Shown in pieces: positions 4,490 through 64,000 of a stretch of DNA of 64,000 bases. This stretch comes from Candidatus Omnitrophota bacterium. Its GTDB lineage: Bacteria > Omnitrophota > Gorgyraeia > Zapsychrales > Fredricksoniimonadaceae. The DNA lies in NCBI GenBank assembly GCA_903901225.1, contig CAIUQE010000011.1, positions 1,453-65,452 of the forward strand, written 5' to 3'. The translations under genes and the position numbers were made by a program. A model generated the notes under the pieces. It did not search any database and was not told where the DNA came from. It worked only from the letters and a program-made list of their open reading frames with translations. The first letter of the stretch is position 1. Each line of letters begins with the position of its first letter.

Positions 4490-4500
4490 TGTTTTTTCCT

Positions 4501-14797: not shown

Positions 14798-14839
14798 CTA
14801 CGCTCCAATGTTTTCACCGGACACGTGTGTAAATTATTA

Positions 14840-36653: not shown

Positions 36654-36654
36654 C

Positions 36655-41657: not shown

Positions 41658-42032
41658 TCACGTGAAGGGGGCTTCAACCTCATGGGCGAACTTGACCAAA
41701 CGGTGCATTTTCATCAACTCGACCTTGTGGAACTCCATCCCGACATCCCACAGTGAACCCGCGCGGCTTCTCGACCAGCGCACCCGTCCGCTGAACTGCA
41801 GCGGCGCGCACCCGTCGGGAGCCTTGACATTGATCGAAATATTATCATCCACAAGAAAACGCTCATTGGTGAACAAGCGGGCACCCGACGCTGAACAATC
41901 TTTCATTTCAACTTCGGTACCGTAATCCGCGGGAGAGTTTTTGAATTTTGTGGGCCACTGGGCTGAAAAACGCTGAAACGTGCGAAGGTCGCTGATTCGA
42001 TTTTTGCCGGTGGGATTGTCACGCGCTTCCAT
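41658..42032 (-). CDS. PilZ-domain (c-di-GMP-binding) protein
   Basis: The 124-aa product has an RxxxR-like segment (NRISDLRTFQRF) and a DxSxSG motif (DCSASGARLF). An AAGGAA Shine-Dalgarno sequence lies upstream. Confidence 0.55.
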   Translation of the reverse strand: MEARDNPTGKNRISDLRTFQRFSAQWPTKFKNSPADYGTEVEMKDCSASGARLFTNERFLVDDNISINVKAPDGCAPLQFSGRVRWSRSRAGSLWDVGMEFHKVELMKMHRLVKFAHEVEAPFT

Positions 42033-42047: not shown

Positions 42048-42401
42048 TCAACCCTTCATTTCCTGATGCAAAAAACGCGTATTCAGCGCTGAATCAAGAT
42101 CCTCAAGCGAACCGTCGATAACATCCGCGAACGTGAGCCCGACGCGATACTGATCGGATTTCGGGATACGGCTCACCCATTTCACCTCACCCACCACAAG
42201 CACAGGTTCCGTATCCGGCTTCAACACCAGCTCAATGGCTACCTTCTCGTTCAACTTCGCGGGATGCTGCGAAACAAATCCAATGCCGTCACGGCTGAGA
42301 TCCACCGTTTTCGTATATGTGAAACCGGCGCCTTCTTTCCCATCAACAGGAACATAACAATCGAACCGTCTGGATTTTCTTTTGTTAGCTGGATTTTCCA
42401 T
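42048..42401 (-). CDS. PilZ-domain (c-di-GMP-binding) protein
   Basis: The 117-aa product has RR (KSRRFD) and DxSxxG (DLSRDGIGF) motifs. It is the first gene downstream of the AT-rich 42.4-42.9 kb region. Confidence 0.7.
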   Translation of the reverse strand: MENPANKRKSRRFDCYVPVDGKEGAGFTYTKTVDLSRDGIGFVSQHPAKLNEKVAIELVLKPDTEPVLVVGEVKWVSRIPKSDQYRVGLTFADVIDGSLEDLDSALNTRFLHQEMKG

Positions 42402-42941: not shown

Positions 42942-45900
42942 TCACTGTTCCCCGCGCCCATGGCGTGCGTGAAGATCATTCCACAATAGATCACGCCACG
43001 CGCGATCAAAGACCACGCATGACTGCCCCGGTTTCTTATCCGTGCTCCGCCGCACATATTCAAAATGGCGCCTGTACATTTGCTCCTGCTGGGATATCAG
43101 TCCAAAAGCGCCGGCAGAGATCGACGCCCCATCCTTGCGAGGATAAATGAAATACTGGAATAAATGCACCATGACGATCGCAAGCTCTTCGGGCGGCGCG
43201 TTCAAAACAAACCAGTCGTCGACCCTGATGCTGCGCCCGGCCACATTGATTTCAGCCACCTGCCTGATACTGTCCGCGAGAGATCCGGCTTCGGCCAATT
43301 CTTCACCCGGCCCCACCTGAACCACAAAGTCAGGAAGGTCCTTTGCCGCTTCACCCAGCAACTCCTTGGCTTTACTGAGCGCCGCCTTTACCCGGTTCAA
43401 AGAGGAATTCCTTCCCCCGTTAGTGCTCTTCGCCGGCGCATTCCAGATCTTCGCGGGAAAGAACCGATCCCGGCCGGGATCAGGCAATTCCCGTGGATAC
43501 ACCATCATGACATTCGACCCGCAGCTGGCCAGATCCCCCGGCCGCGAACCTGGGATCACATAATGAAAAGAAGCACCAAAATTCTGGTGGATGTTCATCT
43601 GGAACCTGTCACCGACCACATTAAAATGGAACCAGGCATAATCTTCGAGTGAATCGAATTCACTCAATGCAAAATACCGCTTCACCTGTTCAGTGGCCAA
43701 TACCTCCCCCTCATTAAGGCGAAGGCCGAATTCCCGCACGAGCTTCAGCCTGTCGCGCGCGAATTTTTCACAAAACTCATTATCCTTATCCGAAAGGGAA
43801 AGGGCGAAAAATTTCTTGTAGTCCCCGAACGTTGGCAAGCCTTCATGCTCCCGGCTCGCCCAGATGCCAAAAGTGTCAATAACTTTACGGACATCCACTT
43901 TTCCATCAGGTTTCAGATAAGGCTCAACCCTGAATCCCGGATTGTTGAGAATATGCTCCATAAAAAATTCGGCGCGGCTGTAAGCAACGGGAGGCCGCCG
44001 GCCAGAGTCCATCGCCAGCTCATGGCTCGCGACGATCAGCCGCTTGGTCAACTCAAGGGTCCTGACGCAGTCATCGTTCCTGACGGCAATGATGGAATAA
44101 TCAAGGAGGAACTTCCGGCTCGCGGGGTCATGGCGCAGCGGAACATCATCGTAATGGTCAGGGATCTCCTCCACAAAACTCACGAACACGCCGGCCTTGA
44201 TGACACCGTCGACCCGCGCCACAAAAACATGATTGGGGACGCTGCCACGAACGGGGTCACCGAATATCCGCGCCCGGACGCTCTCGGGTAAAACATCAAT
44301 GCCGCACATGGCTTTCCAGGCGAAGACCTCCAGATCAACGATCTGCTGGACCTCCGGGTCATCCGGGCCAAAGGGCACAAATCTTGATATCGTCACAACA
44401 GGCCCTGGTTGAGATGTTCGCGGCCCGGGCGCATGTTCCAGGGGTTCTTTCATAACATCGCCGGCAAAAGCTTCGCTTTCCTCATGCGTCATGCCGAAAA
44501 TGGCCGCGGCTTCATGGATCAGCGTATAGCGCAGTTCGAAAGATGTTCGTTCATGTTCAGGATTGATAATGATGTAATGCAGGCCGTTAAAAGTGGCGTT
44601 AACGGCAAATATCTTTGTTTGAAAAGCGCGTTCAATTACGCGAAAGATCTTTTTGAGCCCCGGCGGCGCGTTGATGATGATGGCATGCTCGAGGATGTTT
44701 GCTTTTTCATGGCTGCGACGTTCTCTCAATGTCCGCGCCGACGCGTCCCGATCCTCGTCATATTCAAAAACTGCTTTGGCCGCCGCGATCTCCTGTTCAT
44801 GGGCAACGATCCCGGCGCGCAGTTCCGCTTCCCCACGGCGGGACAGTGGGGGGAAAGCATGGGCGGGATCACGTGCCGTGACAAGAGATCTCTGTGTATT
44901 CGCTGAAACATGATAACCAACGTAATACCCGTTAGCGCTTCCCAAAGCTTTATACGCGCCGGCCCTGTAACTGTGGCGGGGCACCAGGGTCAAAAGAGTC
45001 TCCCGCGTCTTCCCGTCATCCCCGCGGAACGTGACCCGGTAAACTTGATCACCATCAGCCCTGTGATCCCGGATGATCCTGTGAATGAATTCCCGCCGTG
45101 CCTGACCCCACGTGATGGCCATGACCTTAGGGCGAAAAGCTTCGGGTTTCCTTTTCCCGACATTGACACCGAACATCTTTGAAACACGCTTCAGCTCATT
45201 GCCCCGATAGGCCCTGACATCCAGGCGCTCCATATACATTTGCATCAACCGGCCCACAGCTCCCTGCGCGGTCTTGCTATCCACGCTCGCGCGCAACAGC
45301 GCATCTTCAAAAATACGCCTCTGATACCAGGAAATATTGGTTTCATCGGGCGCCAATGTCCTCCCGGCATAGCGGACCTCAACCTTCCCTGCTTCACCCG
45401 CGAAAGGGAAAGCCCGGTAACGGACCAACTGGCGGATATATTCACGGGTTTCATACGGCACATTCGCGCGCCAATACATCTTCAGGGGCGTTACCATCTC
45501 TTCCCCGGGAATGTAACGGCGCGCTTTATCGTCCGACAGGATATTGCGTTCTACCAGCTTGAACACCCGGTCCTTCTGAACCACAAGCTGGCCGTATCTT
45601 CTGTAAAGATCGTTGTCAGCTTCCATCAGGGAGCAGCGGGCCGTTTCAAGATCCCCCTGGGAAAAACTTTCCCGCGCAGCCTTCAGGGTTTCGCGCGACG
45701 CACCCTTCGTTGACTCCGTTTTCTCCGTGCCATTTTTCAGATACGCGATCATGTGATCCAGAATTTCCATCACACTGGCCAGCGACAAAACCGGCTTTTT
45801 ATCCGACGCGATAGATAAAAGAACGCGGATATCGTTCCGCAAGCCGGCAACAATGGCCTCTTCCTTCTGGACACTCTCAAGCTTATGGACCCATTGCCTC

Positions 45901-48900
45901 TGTTTCGGGTTCAATCCGAAAAGGTCCATGGCCGAAATATCCACGCGACCGGTCTTGGGGCTCATGACCGCCACATGCTGCGGCATTTTCTCCAGGAAAT
46001 TTGTGACAGCATCAGGCCGACGGTCCATGGCCTCGATCAATGTGGCCGCCGGATCCGGGTTCTGCCAGGTATTGATCAGAAACATTTTCCCGTCATTGGC
46101 CCCGTCAAAGACTTTCTTTGGATCTTGCGTCACGCGCAGATGCCCCGCCCGGATCAGGTCCATCAATTTCCAAAAACGGGCCTTGTCATTGCCGTGATAA
46201 TAGAGCACGACAACCTTGACCCAAGCCGGGAGGCTATCCATGGCCACCGGCGTGAACCCGCTGTACCTGATAAGGCCCATGTCCCGGACGTAATCGGCCT
46301 CCATTGCGTTGGCGGTCTCAACGGCAAAAACTTCACTCTGCTCATGCGTCATGCCGGAAATGGCCGCGGCTTCGTGGATCAGCGTGATAAGCCGCTGACG
46401 GCGTGTCAATGCATGATCAGGGTTAAAGATGATGTAATGCCGGCCGTTGAAGGTGGCGTTGACGGCGAAGATCTTGATCCGGAGGATGCGTTCAAACTCG
46501 CGCAAGACACTTTGCAATTCCGGCGGCGCGTTGATGATGATCACATGCCTGAGGATGTTCTTTTGTTCACAGTTGCGGCGTTCCGGCCACAAACGCATGG
46601 CCACATCCCTGTCAACGTCATACGCGTGAACCTCTTTGACCTTCAGGATCGGCTGCCGCTGCGCCACGATCTCGCCTTGCAAACGGCGCTCTTCGTCGGA
46701 AGATAACGGCCCCGTGGTGCGGGCGGGGTCTCTGTCAAACGTGACGGGTTTTGTATTTCTAAGAATATAATTAACCGTATCGCATTCTAAACGCAACGCA
46801 ATAAGCCCGCTCCTTATTCCTTCAGAAACGAAAGTCCGGCCTGTGGCTTGAACGACCTTTTTCAACCCGCACAACAGAACTTGTTTTTCTTCATCTGTCC
46901 CGGCTTTAGTGTAAACATCCATCAGGGCTTTGATATTTCCATCCGTGGCCATGGCCAAAGAACGGCGCGACATCACCGAACCCAGAGCCCAGGCGAAACA
47001 ACGGCGAGACAAAGGCCCTTCGGCATCAAACATCCGCGCCAAATACTGAGGGAACTCGCGGTCCAGCGGATATCCGGACAAAACGGCCGATCGCAGCAAT
47101 TCAAAGAAAAGATCTTCCCAGCGCGCGGCCTCAACTTCGGATAAATTCGACCTTTCCTTGAACGCTTCCAGGAAATAATAGAAAGTTTCAGGGAACTGCT
47201 CAACACAAGCGGCCAAATTGCTAACTGCCTTGTCAACTTCTTCTGTCGTCACGGAATTTGCCCATGCCGCCATCACCTCACTCCAGCGCCTTCGCGCCGA
47301 GCGGGCCCTTCCCGACAGATAGGACCTGGCCGTATTTGCCGCCTGCGTCGCCTGCCGGACGGCGTCTTCATAACCAACACCGCCAGCCGCCAGGATCCGG
47401 GATTCGTAAGCCAGCGAGGCGAATTGCTCCTCCCTGTTCCAGTTATGCGTCGGCGAAAGAATGATGAATTTCTTCCCGCTCCTGGTCGTGTGGTTCCATG
47501 AAAAAATAATGATATCTTCGGGGCGTACCCATGCCTGAGCATCTTCCTCAAACGCCGCCGTCGCCCAACGGACATCCGCCCGCACCAGCGCCAGCGCGTC
47601 AGCTTTGGATCCGCGCCGGTCCAGGAATTTCCGCAGCTGGCCTTTTTCCTTAGCCGGGAATTTCGGGAATTTGTCCATGACCTTTTCCCGGTCACCCAGA
47701 AAATCCTGCATGTCATCGCGCTCATTTGAACTTAACAATTTGCTGGCGCGAACCGGATCAGCGGATGACGCATTAAAGTCCCTCAACGACGTTGTCCTGC
47801 GGCTGTCCGCGGGATAAGGTTCCTGCGCTAACTTTCCCGCCACGACGCCAGCCACCAGCAGCAGTCCCATCCCCGCCAGGATGGCCGCGACGTGGGCCGG
47901 CGATGTCAGGGCCAGCAGCGCCGCCAGCGGCAATAGGCTGCACTGGATATTCCCGAATGACATTTCTGCCTCGTCGTCAAATTGACAACGTTCAAAACTG
48001 GCACCCGAAAAATTCGCCCCTTCCAGACAGGCTCCCCGGAAATCAACATCCTCGAATGTTGTTCCTCTGAAATCAGCATAACGGCAATCCGCACTGAAAA
48101 GATCGACCCCGGTCAAATATGCCCGGTTCATGCGCGCACGCACAAATGAGGCACGGGCAGCCTTCACATCTTTCATGCGAATGAACATCAATGAAGAATA
48201 GCTGAGGTTGGTTTTCACCAGTCTCACATCAACAAAATGAGCATCCTCAAGTTTGACACGCGACAAATCAGCTTCTTCCAATGTGATCTTTTCCAAAAAA
48301 GATCCGCTCAGGTCAACCCCGGACATGTTCCTCCCTCTGAATATCCCGGGGCACTTGTTACCGATCCATTGAAGCATATGCGCATTAAGTTCAGGCCTGT
48401 CGGCCTCAACGATGCGCCACGCATTCTTCTCAAAACCATTTCCTAGGAAACCAGCTTCATCGAAATGTGTAAAGATATAATTCCGGATAAAAGAAAAAGC
48501 TGTCTCATCCAGGTATGGCCTGTACAAATAAACACTGGCCCTTCCTGAAGCCAGCTTCCTGTATGTGACAATCAACCCCTCCAACATATTTTTATGCCCG
48601 GAATTAACACTTACACAAGGCGCATCAAGTACCAGGGCTGTTTTGCTACCGGAGAAACTATGAACAGATTTTACAAGGATAAGAACACAACCTTCGGGCT
48701 TATCCCAAACAACAGGCAGCCCGGCCCCATGGCATTGCCCTGAAGCCGGATAAAGATCAATGCTGGCTACCGGCACTTTGACCAGCGCAATATCCTTCTG
48801 ATAGCACGCTTTAAGGAACTGGTCCTCCGCATCAGAACAAACGGGACTTACGATCCGGCCCGGGGTCGCAAGGATCGAGAGCTGCGGCACATTTATTCCA

Positions 48901-60900: not shown

Positions 60901-63900
60901 GCCGCGTACACCTTCTGAATATCAAGGCCGTCCTGGCCGCGCCGGATCTCGGCGAAAGTTTGCCATACCACGCCCTTATTGATATTGTTCCAGTCCAGAC
61001 GGAACGCCTGCAGGGCCGCGCGATCCCTGTGCGTGATATACCCCGTCTTGACCGAGCGAGACGCCGTCGTGTTATCCGTGACAACAACGCGGATCTGGCT
61101 GTCTTCCATCGGCGTGTATTCAATACGGCTTTTCTGATCTTCCGAGAGCATCCATATCCCCGCGAATTCCCTGGTGTTGGGATAGTTGTACCCTTCCGCC
61201 GCCTCATAAACACGTCCGTTGATCAGGCCCCTGCCCCTGCCATAAACAACACCGACCTGCTTGATCAGCTTATAATCCCTGCCGAAAGAATATACAGGCC
61301 GGGCCTCATCTTTTTTCCCAAAGACAACTGTGGCCACGCCGTCCCTGGGCTGGCCCTTGTCAAAATGGAACGGCGTGAAATTGATATATTCATGTCCAAC
61401 ATCCAATGCCGCTACACCGCCTGTCGTGTCCGCGATGATCCCGAAAGCCCTCTTGAAAGATCCACCCACCGAACGCTCAAGGATGTTGATCTTTTTTCCA
61501 TTGATAATTACCGTGCCGCGATCAACAACAGCCCCAACCGGCGTACGGTCCCCGGCCGCATACTTTTCAAACGCGTAAATTTTATGATCCTCCACGACCT
61601 CGGCCTCCCGCGGGTCCGCGGATAAATACAGGCGCTTTGTGATCGTCTTAATGACTTCCCCTGCGGGAGTGATCTTGACAGCCGTCACTTCACCCGTCCG
61701 GCCGCCGGCATTATAGATATTGAAATAATTCTTCCGGATATCCTCAAGCCCCATCAGGCCAAACTTCTTATCATTGAAATTGATCAGGATCCGGTCTTCC
61801 GCGCCTCTCGCTCCACCATGAAATTCCCACCGGATCACCGCCTGCCCCTTCGCGTCAAACCCGCTCACGACCGGCGCCAGGCTCATGTGCTCGATGGCAT
61901 TGCCACCGAGCGGGTCAATATGGTCGATCGACAGGACTTCATTGTTATACGCCGGTACCTGGGCGAGGATCTGCTCACGGGTCATGACTTTGGTATTCTT
62001 ATTCTTCAACACAACGACAAAGCTGTTGGCATCGTACGGACGGTTCTTCGCTTTTGCGAGCGCCGCTTCGAGGGCCTTTTTCATGGGCTCCAGGATCATC
62101 GGATGGACGCTGGTCAGCGTCTGCCCGCCAACCTCATAGGTTCCCGCCGGAAGGACCATGGCCTTGCCTGTCCCGAGATCAACAGCCTGGCCGTCCAGCG
62201 CCCCTTCATAACGGCGCGTATCCTTGTTATACCGCAGGCCCATCGCGGCCAGCGCCTTGTCGCCGGTGTATTCAAGGACTTTCACATTCTGGACGATCCG
62301 CTCATAGTCCGCCATGGTCGTGATCGGCACCGGCATCAACTTGCCCTGAAGGATGAGGCGGCCGGCATCGTCGTGCATGGTCGCGATCTTGCGCAGCATT
62401 TCCGGCGCCAGGAATACCCTGGCACCGTCCGACGCTGTCAGCACGTCGGAAGCAACCGCCTCGCCTTCCAGGATGAATTTCCGCCCGGTCGGCGTGAACT
62501 CCGCGGTATTGAACTGGAAGAATTTGCCCAGGTTCTGCACGGCATTACCGTCGATCCGCGCCTCTTTGACCTGCGGCTTTTGCTTCTTTTCCGAGAATGA
62601 AATGTTCGACAACGGGTTGTACCAGCGGTTGGCTGTCAGGGACGGTGCCCAGGTCATATCCCCCACCGAAGTATTAATGGTCGTGTTAAGGCCCCAGGTC
62701 GGACGGTCACCTTTCAACCCAAACTGCAGTGATGCCTGAACGCCGGACTCCTTATCGCCGATAGCCGGGAGCGGCACACCCGTCACAAAATTCCTGGAAT
62801 CCTGAACGGTAAAGGCAACGCCGCCCACTTTACCGCCAACCTGTGTTGTCTGCTGGCTGAGATTGTATTCAGGGCTGACCTTAACAGGCACACCCAGCAC
62901 CTTGCTTTCCACGCGCGCGCCCACAACAGGACTGGTGCCGGACATCGTGTCATGCCCGACACCGCCATAGAGTTTTACGTTCTTGCTGAGATCAAATTCA
63001 TAGATCGCCCGCGCGAACTTCGCGGCCTCGGCCTCCGTCAAATGAACCTTGAGATCCGGGACATCGTTGCCGTTGGCATCACGCAGGCGCATGCCGGTGA
63101 ACGTGTCCCACCACGACAATGTCAGATCCCTGCCGGCCTGGCCATTAACAACTCCCGCCTCCAGAACAAGCTTGTCCTTGAACCCGATGATACCGTTCAC
63201 CTTCGCCTGGACGCTGGCGCCGGAAATATTTGAATCTTCAGAACCCTGCCCTTTGACCATGAACCCGCTGATCCCCAGGAATATTGATTTTTCTTCCTTA
63301 CCATTGCTCGCCGTGCGGATCTGCGTGCCGATCTGGTCAGCCACAAGATAATAATCCGACGTCACACCCTTGCCCGTAAGATCATCGGGATTTACCTGCC
63401 ACTGATAATTACCGAGATGCCCGGCCGTCAAACGGTTCATCAAAGCCACATTGCCCTTGCCGCCGGTCATCGCATCAAGATGGATCAGCCGCACCGTATT
63501 TTCCGGCGCCGCGCTGTAACCGGCATTCACAACACCCTGGGAAGCGCTGACAAGAACATTTTTAGTATCCACCCAATTCCCATGCGTGCCCATCTGGAAA
63601 GACGTCGCTCCGACCTGGCTGCTCCCGACGAGCTCATTGACCGGCGCCATCCGGATGACCTGGCCTTCTTTCAGGATGAACGGCAGGCGGACCGATCTCG
63701 CGTTGAATTGATCGGCAAGCTGCGCCGCCATGATCTCACGGCCATCAGGCGTAAGGCTCACGTTATCCAGGATCTCCTGGCGCGCCTTGCGGTAGGCAGC
63801 GCCCAGCTCCTGGTTATGCGCGTTCACCGCTTTCGTATACTGTTCAAAGAACGCCGCGATCTCTTTACTCTTGCCCGCGGCCTGGTCCTTGCTGGAAAGC

Positions 63901-64000
63901 ATCTGCCGCTGGGCGGTCAGGACGGCATCCACCGCGTCAAGATTGGCATTCTGGTTCTTGCTCAGATCGCGCGCCGCGTAGCGGCCTTCGTTGATCGCGT
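42942..64000 (-). CDS. Giant multi-domain membrane protein, 5'-partial, with at least 7,018 codons in the window
   Basis: A single uninterrupted minus-strand frame runs from the stop at 42942 to the window end, and the in-frame sequence beyond the ORF track's GTG at 63932 is still open. The domain order from N to C as read from the translation is as follows. (1) A soluble or extracytoplasmic region of about 1,680 aa that includes an (alpha/alpha)-barrel-like stretch. (2) The first transmembrane helix (KKFWWGFAYVLAGLIGLNLISW) near 58.9 kb, then about 1,400 aa of multi-pass membrane region, with a soluble insert at about 55.7-56.9 kb carrying DD/DxD, SED and FPRW motifs reminiscent of processive GT2/GT84 glycosyltransferases. 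(3) A P-loop, guanylate-kinase-like module (VYSGPPGVGKG ... YHTRHPRAGEVDGEQYHF) at about 52.0-52.5 kb. (4) A possible HD-like segment (AAAHDAG ... VRHHG). (5) Duplicated transmembrane modules. (6) Pentapeptide repeats. (7) Duplicated roughly 90-aa modules with an IIINAPP ... HEAAAI motif. Confidence 0.85.
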   Translation of the reverse strand, partial: AINEGRYAARDLSKNQNANLDAVDAVLTAQRQMLSSKDQAAGKSKEIAAFFEQYTKAVNAHNQELGAAYRKARQEILDNVSLTPDGREIMAAQLADQFNARSVRLPFILKEGQVIRMAPVNELVGSSQVGATSFQMGTHGNWVDTKNVLVSASQGVVNAGYSAAPENTVRLIHLDAMTGGKGNVALMNRLTAGHLGNYQWQVNPDDLTGKGVTSDYYLVADQIGTQIRTASNGKEEKSIFLGISGFMVKGQGSEDSNISGASVQAKVNGIIGFKDKLVLEAGVVNGQAGRDLTLSWWDTFTGMRLRDANGNDVPDLKVHLTEAEAAKFARAIYEFDLSKNVKLYGGVGHDTMSGTSPVVGARVESKVLGVPVKVSPEYNLSQQTTQVGGKVGGVAFTVQDSRNFVTGVPLPAIGDKESGVQASLQFGLKGDRPTWGLNTTINTSVGDMTWAPSLTANRWYNPLSNISFSEKKQKPQVKEARIDGNAVQNLGKFFQFNTAEFTPTGRKFILEGEAVASDVLTASDGARVFLAPEMLRKIATMHDDAGRLILQGKLMPVPITTMADYERIVQNVKVLEYTGDKALAAMGLRYNKDTRRYEGALDGQAVDLGTGKAMVLPAGTYEVGGQTLTSVHPMILEPMKKALEAALAKAKNRPYDANSFVVVLKNKNTKVMTREQILAQVPAYNNEVLSIDHIDPLGGNAIEHMSLAPVVSGFDAKGQAVIRWEFHGGARGAEDRILINFNDKKFGLMGLEDIRKNYFNIYNAGGRTGEVTAVKITPAGEVIKTITKRLYLSADPREAEVVEDHKIYAFEKYAAGDRTPVGAVVDRGTVIINGKKINILERSVGGSFKRAFGIIADTTGGVAALDVGHEYINFTPFHFDKGQPRDGVATVVFGKKDEARPVYSFGRDYKLIKQVGVVYGRGRGLINGRVYEAAEGYNYPNTREFAGIWMLSEDQKSRIEYTPMEDSQIRVVVTDNTTASRSVKTGYITHRDRAALQAFRLDWNNINKGVVWQTFAEIRRGQDGLDIQKVYAADVNGNPDRTRLVGTGRQGYRGDFTYVTGKGDTRVAQVMYDGHLQATSFRKDLGQGRQSLPLIQYYSTDSLTSIPIYKNYGVNGDFAEFNELRRNGHTLVFGVTSGFETATIEVFNSHGGKSEAMIYGHEAATIFPYSDSPTADLDSRVYTNIFNLVNRYAFFQGRDPYFGGSVARSNNDPVLKALYTGEGQRRRSQELPVAAPVMAQREPGLTVGAATLEALPETLLEGIRMNFVPYSGNHGSGLFLTHPRTARHDYASTEDEALIIRALTCQGQYADAARALRYYYILTNGGQDPVYAWYHVDSGMPQELIPGFKSARPSSRTAAAQIALARAAYEYFLATGDRHAHDMTGNLLEPLRNKYLVQGGLIERVAPETEDHNGITFWAEAKKLYTTDNANAYVLCDRIARTARGDDKLRAVSLELRASVGAWLNSNILPRFQREGVVITGTHEIQIVTKDKDDANSLVKKGNVYAENLHTTTSATLAFIRAQAAMGADQGLLFKGMDRATAMFGVRANGVWGMDWTLPRGEVDMASSRMTAEYRDVARSIGYHAGEAAAVNGLNRMQNHGGYIEVATPQDSLFSVKDVDVNGLRTADGSYVLVPHDKSGWAYSPAAAAQVLMDAAPVARAQQVMPINAQVEHDAANDVKKFWWGFAYVLAGLIGLNLISWSLIWPIWKRRLDNARKEGKVVVSLAIMEAAEERWAKNILFTNFMATAQQTCDGVIRSSDGPVDENFSGNLRAIYKLGLAWRAAKAGWSEAELHDKLMSGDAFLNGLDELMLIHAFLARRVVFESKKDSVGSFESKKNSAGSMDSNHGWSRMEQYAEYYRSAITRLMDEKQKIVVAGGNASGVAEKDRIIAQLFGQFGLQPRGSPAITTPDDLVFIQEILQNYVTPGAHLQRLETIVGAVNVQAPLNGGHHEIVGNTTENVIAVLANVMAVNGAADVKKDHIGKIQNGLKDFFKREYFEIIPKWYIFIDIAKVLPQLVGVLIAMVAGYQQFVGGVSIFTFLGALPAVLVAMPVIQLALAFVGVGVVLRVAVSALAKTQYKGYLNVDETAARILKGFHHASHILRGIGFVLIGAGLSMVPVHGLGQWFMTHGLMWLVAGTEAAGVFLPYLFTLYSRVTQTWINYQERTGNNRFSGLAKFLNLLNIPESRPMSIVGDSLIRHLQPSVPTGRAMDLFKAIVNYAVLSGLFMWLGGFVMGQAAMVNWISDVYLTSGVVWQLGAGSFVLALALYMTRYAISNVINSVASAFVTWPMKTLGLAYVVAAAVTGILHMPFVLPVNGMVVAILIAASLLDKKIITLLMARNDARIEKAYIDNVAAHEKAHGVKKLFTLVFAGGDAVGTLGRLGGQIVIDRWNWFKDRSSHGIDVMAEVDDLVGTAGDEKVKEWITELHQVETTFKVTLWHPVQILIDAQKAGTQQADVANDNIWLYARDEAQKDRLIRTWKLRRFLVSMQSSGGHSQDTGITIMDIALALKEKLAGVDIGMILLSNKYEDGNKNPSAENYQWNDDKGQRVKLLRLVKTLTGIEGNVVHDWTAFANKAAAMTGTDMVHEWVSRQDTFLIMDRNATVHNMDDFVLDVKTSLADDSLVIVVPSRGTTNIKSPHGESSQSIEEGHRAYVKGVMAIGGAAGESVGTGWGNILKNTYWRAQTALMNPQYPTMPLSIRSRTLRRGFWDNYFSGLFGLVGFIPSAVGISEDIWAVQQQAHTVIGLGGTPRFAQSKAFWHKIRETYAQHEWMAAFPRWSGGFPQLMMDKMMQKIQDYGPQSIFAKEIRDNGGRFFLTAPHGILFILLIPIAIKFGFLPFIGVNLVFAILGGMFNQVLTFNGLIAYLEAHEFYTKTAVVFALVAAAIVGIFGGDPVSVYLAFLAGGFIIGLSRWLSNRPRDFLLFATQQMIHLLGQAARQSLKFTLSGADAEDSISVEMRKHVTRKYENFINMKVIWGFGLLLFGLNLWALSGLDMLNVILLLPSLLFNLGLVIGMFVMKTPEGHFAGNAKQWGSRLAGWGVAGVLYSGLSSLVLLGGTWGAMAAYTVLVFGVGLTLLTWVLMYYPKAIVEQIHHPKTGAMRRAENNRVQGHSGAEKQIEGLNKKAGKLNNFHAGLIKYFPPAMLANMFDAHMTKLKKDKKMQEARLYSEFLRSFVVALFGMIWFFIVPIPGFLAFDTLAARISIPLGNLLWIVGGTVVTFVLARVAFKVSSAISSRYAKERLVELHKYYELIEKDPGIFAAPEAVGQKMRFVSHVRALLADTFIYVEQGSDGYAHKSMDVIEKALKNIQGRAAAPAPFVPSTATRELYNDQVPPLNYTATAGVDNRVRAIDAQGQTLNKARDEVLRDLYAAVPYLSQAPPCAVVVTSDFARTADSIAAYNPAEKTLYVHLSNLDRLVELTGEDKAAYLLFLQGVVEGHEKFHVEGADEPVAMARQLLYLRAHPAIEEATRKVLARPEVFGVQAVDGFDRMLAGSDPSAVNFGYKQILTDKLLEDGAQVGDQLARNHLNLARPQWSIFHNIPLGGQEAARDVVDRVQQVIADKLADTDRGKAIYQALAKIHTTVANFMIGPRPIMERQEFMSGLEEDARGVTPFAYQVVGPRLMPDLSVVLELKSASDNPTLLRGRMAARFTGDLPEGYRRFVPDINHISVAYLKEGDVEQLRELNAAFAVMRQELAGSPVFVTASRVNVSTTVKKIIPDEALMGVELAQVSAESIAALDPQESNLGSPAWIKVTTAGLRGIVPEQRTDVLTIPKGRVLAERLMRGELQDEEIDTLSVDVLADVLRLIPLDKFFLQEKMLVYSGPPGVGKGAIMASAFKGDKALYRDFVERLALYHTRHPRAGEVDGEQYHFGFHNLGVADKNRLLTLATQGKIDLVRVNKQLQGMAKEDFEETVTLHMKDAPIETVLEGDKDVDLSDENIKVVRPIKGLASAFGSKKLTVLEGGYSWFRTLSDAYGKMYTIFITPFTSHQISLRAVNQRVIAEIFISPFERFLGYSLTNMMRREMHKEEIDLRDLRLRGELQRRVWEWERKYAGARGTKIEKEAVMALGRNSADKIKALAANAALIESDLFIEQVDHLVVDYFKRPSFRVNGDVVDSVRAMAYEMQMRLVRNEDRGDISFELQVASRKKEQTGDFNKPEDMLNRVIEGVVQIMLMNEYVREGRGALVVYPFVWEKNGGFKERVRQQAVEEISQKYFSYLLKALASSEAQRVSGLNVGVNVLPELTGLTDANNLAREIETFLLPDIKERKQTHVMLVNERIKMLASRDWQRLYDGLSSVIKGKVSLEEYGVECEKFFYVYQNLSPRARDILIAGAAAHDAGVRYGIREWDHYGEGANIIAGELRKRGYHESVVTAMTFFVRHHGVVDNFGRDYLYNDMFQFKGEWLDIFFLMAFVDGSDRNGGNFYGLEQMKRAWATRYKYMVDGLTLEQRISVLITKNRLLVREIARKTRQVVKALQKKRYWTEAFEHDYLERIRVYCPGFLANLAEVNVVAFAELLQQLHRTVQMQEVNGQFIKDVVVTTSHDFMAMRDLQERLAYLQPLAEDLANRKELPVTVLYNGSQLEIEIQLSAPFMDFAAPFKDKVPGRAFGDNAARVQRIVADRNLSDMKQSPVTVQPRPDAGTVRSFAWPLLLLMAPATATAGWSALTWAGVFIAVGVVAFTILGAVALTYGIVRSKAPSKWEKIIQTNPFKLLLVSLIVGLSLPLKLTGIVFGAIKKLLGRNRSQENIQCALLPLAALVLTSPAHAAAILAGMGLLLVAGVVVGQIKKNQGDRNEIQAARQNNIELAEQLAQEPVPAVTRRTRSLNDFSTVLEEQGVDPHAYTTLIYPASGNADPLNAVRLARYFPNLKELYFISTSYNDVPDLARLQQQCYDRLDGIDPRRTFKILLIKENYYFWRYQRTQEPGSVVMIDKRPGRDSQMRKEQPFYRRMREDMQDGDLVITEVSPVASAIYQWSASVGERFSFAEIPGWRTTGNWRAGIKTSVDDAKVLAFTEDLPVPQAVQARLDSGKFGINVPQLSILATPGRIVSPVCSDAEDQFLKACYQKDIALVKVPVASIDLYPASGQCHGAGLPVVWDKPEGCVLILVKSVHSFSGSKTALVLDAPCVSVNSGHKNMLEGLIVTYRKLASGRASVYLYRPYLDETAFSFIRNYIFTHFDEAGFLGNGFEKNAWRIVEADRPELNAHMLQWIGNKCPGIFRGRNMSGVDLSGSFLEKITLEEADLSRVKLEDAHFVDVRLVKTNLSYSSLMFIRMKDVKAARASFVRARMNRAYLTGVDLFSADCRYADFRGTTFEDVDFRGACLEGANFSGASFERCQFDDEAEMSFGNIQCSLLPLAALLALTSPAHVAAILAGMGLLLVAGVVAGKLAQEPYPADSRRTTSLRDFNASSADPVRASKLLSSNERDDMQDFLGDREKVMDKFPKFPAKEKGQLRKFLDRRGSKADALALVRADVRWATAAFEEDAQAWVRPEDIIIFSWNHTTRSGKKFIILSPTHNWNREEQFASLAYESRILAAGGVGYEDAVRQATQAANTARSYLSGRARSARRRWSEVMAAWANSVTTEEVDKAVSNLAACVEQFPETFYYFLEAFKERSNLSEVEAARWEDLFFELLRSAVLSGYPLDREFPQYLARMFDAEGPLSRRCFAWALGSVMSRRSLAMATDGNIKALMDVYTKAGTDEEKQVLLCGLKKVVQATGRTFVSEGIRSGLIALRLECDTVNYILRNTKPVTFDRDPARTTGPLSSDEERRLQGEIVAQRQPILKVKEVHAYDVDRDVAMRLWPERRNCEQKNILRHVIIINAPPELQSVLREFERILRIKIFAVNATFNGRHYIIFNPDHALTRRQRLITLIHEAAAISGMTHEQSEVFAVETANAMEADYVRDMGLIRYSGFTPVAMDSLPAWVKVVVLYYHGNDKARFWKLMDLIRAGHLRVTQDPKKVFDGANDGKMFLINTWQNPDPAATLIEAMDRRPDAVTNFLEKMPQHVAVMSPKTGRVDISAMDLFGLNPKQRQWVHKLESVQKEEAIVAGLRNDIRVLLSIASDKKPVLSLASVMEILDHMIAYLKNGTEKTESTKGASRETLKAARESFSQGDLETARCSLMEADNDLYRRYGQLVVQKDRVFKLVERNILSDDKARRYIPGEEMVTPLKMYWRANVPYETREYIRQLVRYRAFPFAGEAGKVEVRYAGRTLAPDETNISWYQRRIFEDALLRASVDSKTAQGAVGRLMQMYMERLDVRAYRGNELKRVSKMFGVNVGKRKPEAFRPKVMAITWGQARREFIHRIIRDHRADGDQVYRVTFRGDDGKTRETLLTLVPRHSYRAGAYKALGSANGYYVGYHVSANTQRSLVTARDPAHAFPPLSRRGEAELRAGIVAHEQEIAAAKAVFEYDEDRDASARTLRERRSHEKANILEHAIIINAPPGLKKIFRVIERAFQTKIFAVNATFNGLHYIIINPEHERTSFELRYTLIHEAAAIFGMTHEESEAFAGDVMKEPLEHAPGPRTSQPGPVVTISRFVPFGPDDPEVQQIVDLEVFAWKAMCGIDVLPESVRARIFGDPVRGSVPNHVFVARVDGVIKAGVFVSFVEEIPDHYDDVPLRHDPASRKFLLDYSIIAVRNDDCVRTLELTKRLIVASHELAMDSGRRPPVAYSRAEFFMEHILNNPGFRVEPYLKPDGKVDVRKVIDTFGIWASREHEGLPTFGDYKKFFALSLSDKDNEFCEKFARDRLKLVREFGLRLNEGEVLATEQVKRYFALSEFDSLEDYAWFHFNVVGDRFQMNIHQNFGASFHYVIPGSRPGDLASCGSNVMMVYPRELPDPGRDRFFPAKIWNAPAKSTNGGRNSSLNRVKAALSKAKELLGEAAKDLPDFVVQVGPGEELAEAGSLADSIRQVAEINVAGRSIRVDDWFVLNAPPEELAIVMVHLFQYFIYPRKDGASISAGAFGLISQQEQMYRRHFEYVRRSTDKKPGQSCVVFDRAWRDLLWNDLHARHGRGEQ
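44463..44725. repeat. Intragenic direct repeat B1, paired with 46323-46585; about 260 bp at roughly 80% identity; encodes a duplicated protein module
   Basis: Shared strings include catgcgtcatgccg(a/g)aaatggccgcggcttc(a/g)tggatcagcgt and cggcggcgcgttgatgatga. The encoded peptides are ANILEHAIIINAPPGLKKIFRVIERAFQTKIFAVNATFNGLHYIIINPEHERT ... LIHEAAAIFGMTHEESEAFA versus KNILRHVIIINAPPELQSVLREFERILRIKIFAVNATFNGRHYIIFNPDHALT ... LIHEAAAISGMTHEQSEVFA. Confidence 0.8.
46323..46585. repeat. Intragenic direct repeat B2, paired with 44463-44725
   Basis: See B1. The offset is 1,860 bp. Confidence 0.8.
47780..47952. repeat. Intragenic direct repeat A1, paired with 49515-49756; about 100 bp of core at roughly 90% identity; encodes a transmembrane module
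   Basis: GCCACCAGCAGCAGTCCCATCCCCGCCAGGATGGCCGC ... CACTGGATATTC is present at both loci. The encoded peptides are NIQCSLLPLAALLALTSPAHVAAILAGMGLLLVAGVVAG versus NIQCALLPLAALVLTSPAHAAAILAGMGLLLVAGVVVG. Each is followed by LAQEPxPAxxRRTxSLxDF. Confidence 0.8.
47955..48325 (-). other. Pentapeptide-repeat tract inside the giant ORF
   Basis: About 120 aa of A(D/N)LxG-type pentads (GVDLSGSFLEKITLEEADLSRVKLEDAHFVDVRLVKTNLSYS ... ADFRGTTFEDVDFRGACLEGANFSGASFERCQF). They lie immediately N-terminal to transmembrane repeat A1. Confidence 0.7.
49515..49756. repeat. Intragenic direct repeat A2, paired with 47780-47952; it contains an extra insert of about 85 bp
   Basis: See A1. The offset is about 1.8 kb. 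Confidence 0.8.

What the first reader, a model, noticed from the sequence alone, without database searches (positions are those of the whole stretch)
42942..64000. Giant ORF over 21 kb and over 7,000 codons, still open at the window edge, encoding a mosaic membrane protein
One minus-strand frame is uninterrupted from 42942 to position 64000, and the in-frame sequence upstream of the ORF track's start has no stop, so the true start lies outside the window. The product combines a roughly 1,680-aa soluble N-terminal region, an extensive multi-pass membrane region, an embedded glycosyltransferase-like loop, a kinase-like P-loop module, pentapeptide repeats and internally duplicated modules. Proteins of this size are rare in bacteria. 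Giant genes have been reported as typical of some uncultivated lineages, for example Omnitrophota. A high-GC compact genome with PilZ and secretin genes fits such a lineage, but that placement is inference. Function is unknown. The protein could be a cell-surface or host-attachment machine, or an envelope polysaccharide synthase.
Basis: partly seen in the sequence, partly recalled or inferred. Interest (0 to 1): 0.9.

Follow-up and report, generated by a model that had tools for sequence, protein, structure and literature searches.

The report
Omnitrophota giant gene hiding a polysaccharide synthase
The 21-kb open frame is real and is the last 42% of a ~50-kb single gene of an uncultivated Omnitrophota bacterium, a kind of giant gene already described, but inside it sits a previously unannotated cellulose-synthase-like membrane machine that suggests what part of the protein does.

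Summary
The minus-strand frame 42942-63998 has 7,018 codons without a stop (chance about 1e-140) and a coding signature in every 500-codon segment. An identical public contig calls the whole gene at 16,809 aa, so the window holds the C-terminal 42%, not the N-terminus.

The organism is Omnitrophota: its MnmG is 74% identical to an Omnitrophota MAG, and the named relatives of the protein are Omnitrophota. The layout (giant multi-pass gene, two small PilZ genes, sugar ABC importer, glycosidases) matches the one West-Roberts et al. 2023 described for Omnitrophota giant genes. The class is therefore known.

One caveat: another public assembly has a 1-nt indel at a T6 run that splits the frame.

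Verdict: new variant of a known kind, moderate interest.

The parts
42942..63998 (-). C-terminal 7,018 codons plus stop of a giant gene. The full product is called at 16,809 aa on an identical public contig. Window residue i corresponds to full-length residue 9,791+i.
60732..63998 (-). Window residues 1-1089: soluble, beta-rich, no family match. Shared only with the closest Omnitrophota relative, P0002 (24-39% identity).
54039..60731 (-). Conserved ~2,230-aa 'synthase block' (residues ~1090-3320). It is shared with 173 proteins, and in the Verrucomicrobiota ~4,300-aa proteins it forms the C-terminal half.
59079..60131 (-). (alpha/alpha)6-barrel, six-hairpin glycosidase/epimerase-like domain (residues ~1290-1640). 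Probably extracytoplasmic by the positive-inside rule at the following TM helix.
58887..58943 (-). Single TM helix (residues 1686-1704), followed by the basic stretch KRRLDNARKEGK.
57999..58886 (-). Conserved helical region (residues 1705-2000), probably cytoplasmic.
54279..57998 (-). BcsA / hyaluronan-synthase-like processive glycosyltransferase module (residues 2001-3240): TM bundle, GT-A domain, TM bundle.
55704..56903 (-). GT-A alpha/beta domain (residues ~2366-2765) with near-invariant D2375, D2601-R-N, D2615, R2632, E2649, GTGWGN and R2765.
55797..55805 (-). S2732-E-D2734, the candidate equivalent of the 'TED' catalytic motif (E 48/49, D 48/48 conserved).
55659..55667 (-). P2778-R-W2780 within PRWSGG, the candidate equivalent of 'QxxRW' (R 52/52, W 51/53 conserved).
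42945..54038 (-). Lineage-specific C-terminal extension (residues 3321-7018). It has no relatives among the 150 protein hits or the 43 metagenome loci, apart from one 210-aa stretch (residues 3513-3723) shared at 30% with Omnitrophota protein P0026. GC3 drops to 0.45-0.55 over residues ~3500-5500.
53667..53681 (-). HEKFH (HExxH) motif, residues 3440-3444. Seen in the sequence only; no family match.
52380..52547 (-). P-loop (GPPGVGKG at residue 3825) with a weak, sub-threshold guanylate-kinase-like match (residues 3818-3873).
50859..50866 (-). T6 homopolymer at residues 4379-4380. Another public assembly (protein P0001) is frameshifted by 1 nt here.
49506..49754 (-). TM-hairpin repeat, copy 1 (residues 4749-4831).
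47964..48353 (-). Pentapeptide-repeat beta-helix (residues ~5216-5345).
47772..47951 (-). TM-hairpin repeat, copy 2 (residues 5350-5409).
46323..46733 (-). Duplicated ~140-aa module, copy 1 (residues 5756-5892; 'IIINAPPE...LIHEAAAI').
44463..44873 (-). Duplicated ~140-aa module, copy 2 (residues 6376-6512).
42048..42401 (-). Stand-alone PilZ protein A (117 aa) with RKSRR and DLSRDG c-di-GMP-binding motifs.
41658..42032 (-). Stand-alone PilZ protein B (124 aa) with RTFQR and DCSASG motifs.
38905..41607 (-). GH94 laminaribiose phosphorylase homolog (E 2.5e-262 to PDB 6GGY, full length).
35808..38888 (-). Carbohydrate ABC importer: solute-binding protein (37599-38888) and two permeases (36655-37602, 35808-36653).
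33450..35768 (-). TPR plus GH2-type TIM-barrel glycosidase-like protein (also a borderline GH72 hit).

Best explanation
Shown: The frame is the 3' 21 kb of one ~50.4-kb gene (16,809 codons) of an uncultivated Omnitrophota bacterium. It belongs to the already described class of Omnitrophota giant membrane proteins that are followed by small pilZ genes and a sugar-import/glycosidase operon. The window part is a mosaic of two pieces.

Piece 1 (window residues ~1090-3320) is an ancient, conserved polysaccharide-machine block:
- an (alpha/alpha)6 glycosidase-like domain;
- one TM helix;
- a helical region;
- a processive, membrane-embedded GT-A glycosyltransferase built like cellulose synthase BcsA or hyaluronan synthase.

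Piece 2 (residues 3321-7018) is a lineage-specific add-on with lower GC3. It holds an HExxH motif, a weak P-loop, two homologous TM hairpins bracketing a pentapeptide beta-helix, and duplicated modules of unknown function.

Inferred mechanism:
1. The GT-A domain on the cytoplasmic face polymerises a sugar from a nucleotide-sugar donor, most likely UDP-glucose.
2. The growing chain is threaded through the module's own TM channel, as in BcsA or HAS.
3. The (alpha/alpha)6 domain on the outer face trims or remodels the emerging glycan, as BcsZ does for cellulose.

More speculative steps: the two stand-alone PilZ proteins could gate the synthase in trans in response to c-di-GMP (Alg44/Alg8-like). 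The neighbouring ABC importer plus laminaribiose phosphorylase would salvage beta-1,3-gluco-oligosaccharides into glucose-1-phosphate.
For: Reality of the gene: (stop-free, coding periodicity throughout, P about 1e-140). One search gives the 16,809-aa call on a contig that is 100% identical over 20.4 kb. The locus proteins are seen on 27-44 contigs, the longest 144.9 kb.

Lineage: MnmG is 74% identical to a Ca. Omnitrophota MAG, and the next-best hits are also Omnitrophota. Named relatives of the protein are Omnitrophota.

[quoted passage not shown] Nielsen & Lui 2026 (10.64898/2026.06.07.730766) report GH2 flanks and that 94% of such proteins carry TM helices or a signal peptide.

Synthase module:
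- The AF2 model of residues 2001-3200 with an 81-sequence alignment has mean pLDDT 85.6 and pTM 0.88.
- Foldseek top hits are BcsA 4P00 (E 2.7e-6), CesA8 and CvHAS.
- Polar residues are near-invariant across up to 53 homologs at 25-50% identity: E2733 48/49, D2734 48/48, R2779 52/52, W2780 51/53, R2765 53/53, E2649 42/42, D2601 42/45.

(alpha/alpha)6 domain: model; Foldseek E 1.6e-5 to 1e-3 to dextran dextrinase, cellobiose 2-epimerase, GH76, GH63 and BcsZ/CMCax.

Context:
- A UDP-glucose pyrophosphorylase gene (E 1e-117) lies two genes downstream of the module gene in L082 and L094. Large GH42-like proteins sit next to it in L082, L094 and L127, and a similar-sized ~1,540-aa ORF (not family-scanned) sits next to it in L091.
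- Laminaribiose phosphorylase (E 2.5e-262) and a sugar ABC importer are present here.
- Both PilZ proteins carry RxxxR and DxSxxG.

Mosaic structure.
Against: - No sequence-level membership in any glycosyltransferase family. There were no GT hits from Pfam (down to E 5), and none from NCBIfam (E<=0.01), PDB phmmer (E<=1), the family profile against PDB (E<=10) or hhalign against E. coli BcsA (probability 0.14).
- The canonical DxD is replaced by D-R-N, and the Q of QxxRW is absent. Activity and donor are therefore unproven.
- Motif equivalence was inferred from order along the fold, not from a coordinate superposition.
- Foldseek TM-scores are modest (0.22-0.45).
- PilZ genes are not next to the module gene in any of the relatives whose downstream flank was checked (L126, L127 and L129, plus the downstream ORFs scanned in L082, L085, L094, L098 and L101). 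The PilZ-synthase link therefore rests only on adjacency in Omnitrophota giants.
- The laminaribiose operon could serve nutrient uptake unrelated to the giant protein.
- The extension (53% of the window part) remains functionally unassigned.
- One other assembly carries a frameshift at residue ~4380.
- The 9,791 upstream residues were not seen.
Confidence: 0.6

Rival explanations
1. Predation or attachment weapon (the published hypothesis for Omnitrophota giants). The protein is mainly an extracellular adhesion and prey-cell-wall-degrading machine. Its carbohydrate-active domains and the downstream importer harvest prey glycans, and the synthase-like module serves as a membrane anchor or conduit rather than building a polymer.
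For: West-Roberts 2023 and Nielsen & Lui 2026 infer this from the same neighbourhood type. An (alpha/alpha)6 glycosidase-like domain is present. Laminaribiose phosphorylase, an ABC importer and a GH2-like enzyme lie downstream. An amidase and a secretin occur elsewhere in the window.
Against: None of the published hallmark domains (dockerin, TSP3, HEAT, SLT, C39, SecA-DEAD) was found in the 7,018 window residues. The best-conserved part is a biosynthetic fold with a near-invariant putative active site. The same block occurs as a stand-alone gene in free-living-type Verrucomicrobiota, next to a UDP-glucose pyrophosphorylase gene. This reading is not mutually exclusive with the best explanation.
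Confidence: 0.25
2. Polyprotein. The 16,809-aa product is translated as one chain but cleaved into separate working units (synthase block, extension modules). The size would then reflect gene fusion for co-expression, not a single giant machine.
For: The structure is mosaic, with sharp homology boundaries at residues ~1090 and ~3320. The block functions as the C-terminal half of independent ~4,300-aa proteins elsewhere. An HExxH motif occurs at residue 3440, just after the block. West-Roberts note C39 and S8 peptidase domains in other giants.
Against: No peptidase family match was found in the window. No cleavage-site evidence exists, and this cannot be tested here.
Confidence: 0.2
3. Assembly or annotation artefact. 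The frame is really several ordinary genes joined by collapsed indels or a chimeric join.
For: P0001, from another public contig, is identical over residues 643-4379 but ends in the +1 frame after a T6 run, and has an unrelated 15-aa start. GC3 drops in residues 3500-5500.
Against: The window and ENA scaffold_43 agree base for base and read through the T6 site. Coding periodicity in this one frame is continuous, with 17-45 stops per 500 codons in the other sense frames. The homologous block is uninterrupted in dozens of independent relatives. Giant ORFs are validated in complete long-read Omnitrophota genomes. A single frameshift would still leave genes of more than 2,600 and more than 14,000 codons.
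Confidence: 0.07
4. Pseudo-enzyme scaffold. The BcsA-like module has lost catalysis (DxD has become DRN, and the Q of QxxRW is missing) and acts only as a multi-pass anchor or channel.
For: The motifs deviate from canon, and there is no sequence similarity to active GT2 enzymes.
Against: Many polar residues are almost fully invariant across Omnitrophota and Verrucomicrobiota at 25-50% overall identity, which is typical of a maintained active site. A UDP-glucose pyrophosphorylase gene is adjacent in relatives.
Confidence: 0.1

Closest known systems
Omnitrophota giant genes (West-Roberts et al. 2023, bioRxiv 10.1101/2023.11.21.568195; catalogue of Nielsen & Lui 2026, 10.64898/2026.06.07.730766)
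   Same: Same phylum, with one ORF of tens of kb and many TM helices. Large stretches have no Pfam match. The gene is immediately followed by small pilZ genes, then a solute-binding-protein-dependent sugar importer and glycosidases (GH2-type).
   Different: At 16.8 kaa it is small for the class, which goes up to 85.8 and 147 kaa. None of the class-defining Archaeovorin or Dockerin domains, nor SecA-DEAD or C39, occurs in the window part. The cellulose-synthase-like block found here is not mentioned in either paper. Genome GC (0.57) is high compared with the low-GC giant loci recovered here (0.37-0.44).
Bacterial cellulose synthase BcsA (GT2; PDB 4P00/4HG6) with BcsZ
   Different: There is no detectable sequence similarity (hhalign probability 0.14; no Pfam GT2 or Cellulose_synt hit). 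DxD is replaced by DRN, and there is no Q in QxxRW. PilZ is not fused but encoded as two separate small genes. More TM helices are present. The (alpha/alpha)6 domain is fused upstream in the same polypeptide. No BcsB-like partner was seen. The whole unit is embedded in a 16.8-kaa protein.
Hyaluronan synthases (Chlorella virus and Xenopus HAS; PDB 7SP7, 8SMM), plant CesA/CslF6, chitin synthase
   Different: As for BcsA. These are 500-1,000-aa stand-alone enzymes of CAZy family GT2, recognisable by sequence.
Alg8/Alg44 (alginate) type regulation: a separate PilZ protein activating a GT2 synthase (from general knowledge, not tested here)
   Same: The PilZ receptor is encoded separately from the synthase.
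   Different: Alg44 is a membrane-anchored PilZ with a periplasmic domain. Here the PilZ proteins are 117-124-aa single-domain proteins. The interaction is purely hypothetical and is absent from the relatives' loci.
Verrucomicrobiota ~4,300-aa hypothetical proteins (e.g. MBL9174736.1, MFM1944295.1)
   Same: They share the whole ~2,230-aa block (28-30% identity, collinear), including the (alpha/alpha)6 domain, the TM helix, the helical region and the synthase module. They are also entirely Pfam-dark.
   Different: In them the block ends the protein, whereas here 3,700 more residues follow and about 10,900 precede it. They have no pilZ neighbours. Their recurrent neighbour is a 1,350-1,580-aa GH42-like protein.

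Membership tests
Omnitrophota giant proteins (West-Roberts 2023 / Nielsen & Lui 2026) | Encoded in an Omnitrophota genome | tested here: met
   MnmG is 74% identical to a Ca. Omnitrophota MAG, and the next-best hits at 60-62% are Omnitrophota MAGs or bins labelled 'uncultured Planctomycetales'. Named protein relatives are Ca. Omnitrophota.
Omnitrophota giant proteins (West-Roberts 2023 / Nielsen & Lui 2026) | Single ORF of at least 10,000 aa (Nielsen & Lui) or more than 30,000 aa (West-Roberts 'giant') | tested here: inconclusive
   The 16,809-aa call on the identical contig meets the 10-kaa criterion but not the 30-kaa one. The gene start at contig position ~214 is my inference from coordinates.
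Omnitrophota giant proteins (West-Roberts 2023 / Nielsen & Lui 2026) | Numerous transmembrane helices | tested here: met
   About 20 hydrophobic segments in five clusters; helical bundles in the AF2 models.
Omnitrophota giant proteins (West-Roberts 2023 / Nielsen & Lui 2026) | Small pilZ gene(s) immediately downstream, then an SBP-dependent sugar transporter and glycosidases | tested here: met
   Two PilZ genes (42048-42401, 41658-42032), GH94, an SBP, two permeases and a GH2-like gene.
Omnitrophota giant proteins (West-Roberts 2023 / Nielsen & Lui 2026) | SecA-DEAD / C39 domains; T2SS-like locus upstream | not testable with these tools
   None was found in the 7,018 window residues. The upstream 9,791 residues and the upstream flank lie outside the window and could not be fetched.
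Archaeovorin-type or Dockerin-type subclasses | HEAT, GT5/GT1, methyltransferase, NUDIX (Archaeovorin) or dockerin and TSP3 repeats (Dockerin type) | tested here: not met
   No such Pfam hits in the window part. The upstream part is untested.
Processive membrane-integrated GT2 glycan synthases (BcsA/CesA/HAS/Chs) | GT-A fold domain inserted between TM bundles, with the fold match extending into TM/interface helices | tested here: met
Processive membrane-integrated GT2 glycan synthases (BcsA/CesA/HAS/Chs) | Sequence membership (CAZy GT2; Pfam Glycos_transf_2, Glyco_tranf_2_3, Cellulose_synt, Chitin_synth_2) | tested here: not met
   No hit at E<=5 on the loop. None in any of 71 family members. 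The family profile against PDB sequences found nothing. hhalign against E. coli BcsA gave probability 0.14.
Processive membrane-integrated GT2 glycan synthases (BcsA/CesA/HAS/Chs) | Catalytic motifs D, DxD, (T)ED, QxxRW | tested here: inconclusive
   SED (48/48 D) and RW (52/52 R, 51/53 W) are near-invariant and in the right order. A GD(D) follows the first strand (D2375, 20/22). The DxD position reads D-R-N, and the Q is absent. No coordinate superposition was possible.
Processive membrane-integrated GT2 glycan synthases (BcsA/CesA/HAS/Chs) | Polymerising and translocating activity | not testable with these tools
   Needs biochemistry.
BcsA specifically | C-terminal fused PilZ domain gating the active site | tested here: not met
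   There is no PilZ in the giant protein. Two separate PilZ genes lie downstream.
GT48 FKS1 / callose synthase (considered because of 'SEDIW...RFFLTAPHG' resemblance) | Pfam Glucan_synthase PF02364 match, or FKS1 as the best structural match | tested here: not met
Six-hairpin (alpha/alpha)6 glycosidase/epimerase superfamily | (alpha/alpha)6 barrel fold | tested here: met
   Foldseek E 1.6e-5 to 1e-3, with TM-scores normalised to target of 0.5-0.68, to CE, GH76, GH63, GH100 and GH8 BcsZ. The domain pLDDT is 80-95. No sequence family was assigned.
Pentapeptide repeat proteins | Pfam PF00805 above threshold | tested here: met
   E 9.2e-18, 63.9 bits against a cutoff of 20.2; PDB pentapeptide proteins at E 2e-10.
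Guanylate kinase-like P-loop kinases | Pfam PF00625 or TIGR03263 above threshold over the full domain | tested here: not met
   22.9 bits against a cutoff of 25.2, covering profile positions 2-53 of 182 only. Only the Walker-A region matches.
GH94 laminaribiose phosphorylase (neighbour gene) | Full-length high-scoring similarity to a characterised enzyme | tested here: met
   6GGY_A at E 2.5e-262, residues 7-869 against 8-876. Substrate specificity itself was not tested.

The most novel reading that the evidence does not exclude
The ~2,230-aa block defines a new, sequence-orphan family of processive glycan synthases. In effect this would be a new glycosyltransferase family with a BcsA/HAS fold, fused to its own extracytoplasmic (alpha/alpha)6 processing domain. 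It is restricted to PVC-type bacteria, occurring as stand-alone ~4,300-aa proteins in Verrucomicrobiota and as a core module of Omnitrophota giant proteins. In Omnitrophota it is switched by c-di-GMP through the trans-encoded PilZ proteins that are the conserved downstream neighbours of giant genes. At least some Omnitrophota giant proteins would then be envelope or extracellular-polysaccharide (possibly beta-glucan) biosynthetic machines, rather than, or in addition to, prey-degrading weapons.
Probability: 0.35. Interest if true: 0.7.

Novelty: new variant of a known kind. Interest (0 to 1): 0.55.

Why it matters
Omnitrophota giant proteins are among the largest proteins known and remain almost entirely without a mechanism. 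[quoted passage not shown] This locus shows that a large Pfam-dark stretch of such a protein is a well-folded, deeply conserved cellulose-synthase-like machine with a maintained putative active site.

That gives three things:
- a concrete, testable biochemical activity for part of a giant protein;
- a rationale for the so far unexplained, conserved pilZ genes downstream of giant genes (c-di-GMP control of a synthase is the textbook PilZ role);
- a tractable surrogate for experiments, namely the ~4,300-aa Verrucomicrobiota homologs or the excised block.

It also illustrates that 'dark' giant-protein sequence can be resolved by building family alignments from metagenomic fragments before structure prediction.

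If the synthase reading is wrong, the finding is simply one more, rather small, member of a known class.

Tried and rejected
- The search for homologous proteins on residues 1981-3330 and 3330-4660 returned nothing. It missed even the identical fragment P0001 and the 35-55%-identical relatives later found by exhaustive HMMER. I treat these nulls as tool misses, not biology, and left the third search unused.
- The search for related loci in GTDB genomes with the single module sequence found nothing. The second genome scan went to MnmG for taxonomy.
- The FKS1/GT48 idea, from a by-eye motif resemblance, is rejected: there is no PF02364 hit and no FKS1 among the fold hits.
- Sequence and profile routes to a GT assignment all came back negative. 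These were Pfam, NCBIfam, PDB phmmer, the family profile against PDB, and hhalign against E. coli BcsA. Only structure prediction with a custom alignment worked.
- Alignment A1 was too large for prediction. A3 was too gappy for pattern design. A5 had a scattered query tail, so it was rebuilt as A6.
- tblastn of this window's neighbours against the 43 related loci found only weak GH2-like hits. Pfam and gene tables of the relatives' flanks show no PilZ, so conserved PilZ synteny for the module family as a whole is rejected.
- A literature search for the sample identifiers found nothing relevant.


Full report
1. THE OBSERVATION

The minus-strand frame from 42942 to 63998 contains 7,018 sense codons and ends in a stop at 42942-42944. 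It is still open at the window edge. With the local base composition a stop is expected every ~22 codons, so a 7,018-codon stop-free run has a probability of about 1e-140. The other five frames of the same stretch contain 84-412 stops. Each of the fourteen full 500-codon segments shows the coding signature GC1 > GC2 < GC3. The frame is therefore real coding sequence and not a chance ORF.

An exact look-up of the neighbouring PilZ protein led to ENA contig BUCK21-1_SAMEA6872989_METAG-scaffold_43 (78.7 kb). Its 20,375 fetched bases are 100% identical to window 31658-52032. On that contig the gene product is called at 16,809 residues. From the coordinates the gene starts near contig position 214, so it is probably complete; that step is my inference. 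The window therefore holds the C-terminal 42% of a ~50.4-kb gene. The neighbouring proteins occur on 27-44 contigs in public assemblies, the longest 144.9 kb.

2. A CAVEAT ON INTEGRITY

The top hit of the exhaustive protein search, P0001 (3,784 aa, on a 21-kb NCBI/ENA contig), is identical to the window protein over residues 643-4379. Its last 32 residues are exactly the +1-frame translation of the window DNA downstream of 'TAMTF'. The site is a T6 run, ACATTTTTTGTG, at window ~50859-50866. So one public assembly of the same sequence carries a 1-nt indel that truncates the ORF, while the window and scaffold_43 read through. This may be a homopolymer error in either direction, or real variation. 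Only reads can decide. Even if the frameshift were real, the pieces would still be giant.

3. WHOSE GENE AND WHAT CLASS

The window's MnmG is 74% identical to that of a Candidatus Omnitrophota MAG. The next hits, at 60-62%, are Omnitrophota MAGs or bins labelled 'uncultured Planctomycetales'. The named relatives of the giant protein itself are Candidatus Omnitrophota.

Downstream on the same strand lie:
- two small PilZ genes (42048-42401 and 41658-42032);
- a GH94 enzyme;
- a sugar-binding protein and two ABC permeases;
- a TPR/GH2-type TIM-barrel protein.

West-Roberts et al. 2023 describe exactly this arrangement. Omnitrophota giant genes have many TM helices. [quoted passage not shown] Nielsen & Lui 2026 catalogue 916 Omnitrophota proteins of at least 10 kaa (up to 147 kaa). 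Of these, 94% have TM helices or signal peptides, 137 are entirely Pfam-dark, and GH2 flanks are common. The class is thus known, and this gene is a modest-sized member. None of the published hallmark domains (SecA-DEAD, C39, HEAT, GT5/GT1, dockerin, TSP3) occurs in the window part.

4. ANATOMY OF THE WINDOW PART

Sequence libraries recognise only two things. One is a pentapeptide-repeat region (residues ~5216-5345; PF00805, E 9e-18). The other is a sub-threshold guanylate-kinase-like P-loop (residues 3818-3873; 22.9 bits against a cutoff of 25.2, covering 52 of 182 profile positions). Hydrophobic segments cluster at residues 1686-1704, 2006-2338, 2824-3232, 4672-4786 and 5355-5388. Two internal duplications are real: a TM hairpin (4749-4831 / 5350-5409) and a ~140-aa module (5756-5892 / 6376-6512).

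An exhaustive HMMER search of 1.84 billion representative proteins with residues 2001-3200 found 173 relatives, 103 of them at E <= 1e-30. Mapping them back shows a sharply bounded conserved block at residues ~1090-3320.
- The closest Omnitrophota relative (P0002) is collinear from residue 21 to residue 3311.
- A family of complete, stand-alone ~4,200-4,600-aa proteins carries the block as its C-terminal half and ends where the block ends. Where these proteins are named they are Verrucomicrobiota.
- Low-GC metagenome loci (0.37-0.44) carry the core of the block inside ORFs that run open through 21 kb, so they are other giants.

Almost nothing matches residues 3321-7018 in the relatives or in 43 metagenome loci; the one exception is a 210-aa stretch (residues 3513-3723) shared at 30% with Omnitrophota protein P0026. 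GC3 falls from 0.66-0.70 to 0.45-0.55 over residues ~3500-5500. The protein is a mosaic: an old conserved block plus a lineage-specific, compositionally distinct extension.

5. WHAT THE CONSERVED BLOCK IS

Using the metagenomic fragments as an alignment (81 sequences), AlphaFold2 models residues 2001-3200 with mean pLDDT 85.6 and pTM 0.88. The model is a helical membrane bundle, an alpha/beta domain (residues ~2366-2765) and a second helical bundle.

Fold searches agree on what this resembles:
- Foldseek against the PDB puts bacterial cellulose synthase BcsA first (4P00, E 2.7e-6). Plant CesA8, E. coli BcsA and Chlorella-virus hyaluronan synthase follow.
- Soluble GT-A enzymes align over only 160-250 residues with lower scores.

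The match thus covers the GT-A core plus the membrane/interface helices that make these enzymes processive synthase-translocases.

Within the family, polar residues are almost invariant at 25-50% overall identity:
- D2375 (20/22), after the first strand;
- D2601-R-N (42/45), after a central strand;
- D2615, R2632 and E2649 (42/42);
- GTGWGN;
- S-E2733-D2734 (48/49 and 48/48), at the start of a helix;
- R2765 (53/53);
- P-R2779-W2780 (52/52 and 51/53).

In order and secondary-structure context these resemble the D / DxD / TED / QxxRW series of GT2 synthases. However, the DxD reads DRN and the Q is missing. I could not superpose coordinates, so the equivalence is inferred.

At sequence level there is no relationship to any GT family. 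The following all came back empty:
- Pfam down to E 5 on the loop;
- Pfam on all 71 family members;
- phmmer of the region against PDB sequences;
- a family profile against PDB sequences;
- hhalign against E. coli BcsA (probability 0.14).

My initial by-eye idea of an FKS1/GT48 relationship is rejected.

The second model (residues 1090-2289; pLDDT 73, with the domain at residues ~1290-1600 at 80-95) shows an (alpha/alpha)6 barrel. It matches dextran dextrinase, cellobiose 2-epimerase, GH76, GH63 and GH100. It also matches the cellulose-synthase-associated GH8 glucanases BcsZ and CMCax (Foldseek E 1.6e-5 to 2e-3). The TM helix at residues 1686-1704 is followed by a strongly basic stretch (KRRLDNARKEGK). 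By the positive-inside rule this places the (alpha/alpha)6 domain outside and the following helical region inside, consistent with a cytoplasmic GT-A domain. This topology is inference.

6. CONTEXT THAT BEARS ON FUNCTION

The 'GH94-like' neighbour is a full-length, very strong match to the characterised laminaribiose phosphorylase (6GGY; E 2.5e-262). Together with the SBP and permeases it looks like a beta-1,3-gluco-oligosaccharide uptake and phosphorolysis unit yielding glucose-1-phosphate. Both PilZ proteins carry canonical RxxxR and DxSxxG motifs.

In the relatives the picture is as follows:
- The module gene is followed in L082 and L094 by a large GH42-like protein and then a UTP-glucose-1-phosphate uridylyltransferase (E 1e-117).
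- L091 has a similar-sized ORF in the same position, which I did not scan.
- L085 has a GH2 TIM barrel.
- L127 has a divergent 1,484-aa GH42-like gene and a GT1-like gene.
- No PilZ lies next to the module gene in any relative whose downstream flank I inspected: L082, L085, L094, L098, L101, L126, L127 and L129.

The glycan theme is therefore conserved with the block, whereas the PilZ link is specific to the Omnitrophota giant-gene context.

7. HOW IT MOST LIKELY WORKS

Shown:
- It is a single giant ORF of a known Omnitrophota class.
- It contains a conserved block with a BcsA/HAS-type synthase fold and an (alpha/alpha)6 domain.
- Its candidate active-site residues are near-invariant.
- Its neighbourhood is sugar-related.

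Inferred (about 0.55): the module is an active processive synthase. It polymerises a nucleotide-sugar, with UDP-glucose the best guess, and extrudes the chain through its own channel. The fused outer (alpha/alpha)6 domain trims or remodels the product.

More speculative:
- c-di-GMP control through the two PilZ proteins acting in trans (about 0.35).
- A beta-1,3-glucan-type product or salvage loop through laminaribiose phosphorylase (about 0.25).

The 3,700-aa extension is unassigned. It holds an HExxH motif, a P-loop, an HD-like motif seen by eye, TM hairpins bracketing a pentapeptide beta-helix, and duplicated modules.

Rivals:
- The published prey-adhesion/degradation role, which is compatible with the above rather than exclusive.
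- A polyprotein that is cleaved.
- A pseudo-enzyme anchor.
- An assembly artefact, which is unlikely but touched by the T6 frameshift.

8. NOVELTY AND SCORE

The giant gene as such is a new member of a known kind, and far from record size. Neither giant-gene paper mentions cellulose synthase or BcsA. A search for papers containing both 'Omnitrophota' and 'cellulose synthase' found only an unrelated c-di-NMP receptor study.

What is not in that literature:
- part of the 'dark' sequence is a sequence-orphan, structurally clear cellulose-synthase-like machine;
- this machine is shared with stand-alone Verrucomicrobiota proteins;
- it offers a rationale for the conserved pilZ neighbours.

I rate the whole as a new variant of a known kind, with interest 0.55. 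A specialist would not be surprised by the giant ORF. The specialist would find the synthase core and the biosynthetic, rather than purely predatory, reading useful and testable.

Noticed in passing
window 38905-41607 (-), with 35808-38888 (-): A full-length homolog of characterised laminaribiose phosphorylase (6GGY, E 2.5e-262) sits beside a sugar ABC importer. This implies beta-1,3-gluco-oligosaccharide (laminarin-type) utilisation in an Omnitrophota bacterium. Pfam alone labels the enzyme only weakly as GH94.
   Followed up: partly
window ~50859-50866 (T6 run; residues 4379-4380 of the window protein): Another public assembly (protein P0001, 21-kb contig) is identical over 3,737 residues but shifts to the +1 frame here and stops 32 codons later. 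Its first 15 residues are also unrelated to the window sequence. This could be homopolymer error, strain variation or slipped-strand switching.
   Followed up: partly
window ~47500-53500 (residues ~3500-5500): GC3 drops to 0.45-0.55 inside the giant ORF, against 0.66-0.70 in the conserved block and 0.75-0.78 in housekeeping genes (MutS, MnmG). This suggests the C-terminal extension has a different origin or is under different constraint.
   Followed up: partly
loci L082, L094, L127, L128, L129; proteins P0006-P0022: Verrucomicrobiota encode complete stand-alone ~4,200-4,600-aa proteins with no Pfam hit at all, at least in the two scanned, P0006 and P0010. Their C-terminal half is the same (alpha/alpha)6 plus synthase block. 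They often lie next to a 1,350-1,580-aa GH42-like protein and, in two loci, a UDP-glucose pyrophosphorylase gene. Their N-terminal ~2,000 aa are unexplored.
   Followed up: partly
proteins P0030, P0032, P0042: In a few relatives the BLAST segments are in permuted order: the second TM bundle comes before the GT loop. This hints at tandem or partial copies of the module within one protein.
   Followed up: no
window 14001-18506: A low-GC patch (0.49 in 14-16 kb) with strong AT skew (0.27 in 16-18 kb). It holds a ConA-like lectin/glucanase protein (14840-15619, -) and two plus-strand ORFs (15775-16743, 16740-18506) without any Pfam match. It may be an inserted island.
   Followed up: no
window 26-2605 (+), 7035-8054 (-), 8061-9527 (-): An AsmA/T2SS-N-like protein, an N-acetylmuramoyl-L-alanine amidase and a secretin (GspD-type N0, Secretin_N and Secretin domains). 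These lie ~33-43 kb downstream of the giant gene. This is not the upstream T2SS-like locus described for giant genes.
   Followed up: partly
window 42402-42941: A 540-nt AT-rich spacer separates the giant gene's stop from the first PilZ gene. It contains a 63-aa opposite-strand ORF (42738-42929, +) with a hydrophobic tail. That ORF is also called as a gene on the ENA contig.
   Followed up: no
window 27398-29245 (+) versus 27377-29251 (-): A 615-aa antisense ORF mirrors the whole MnmG gene. This is almost certainly a shadow ORF of the kind common in GC-rich coding sequence.
   Followed up: no
tool behaviour: The word-indexed protein search returned no hit for two regions. The exhaustive search finds an identical fragment covering most of both regions, and for the first region also 35-55%-identical relatives. 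'No homologs' from the word-indexed tool should not be trusted for such proteins.
   Followed up: yes
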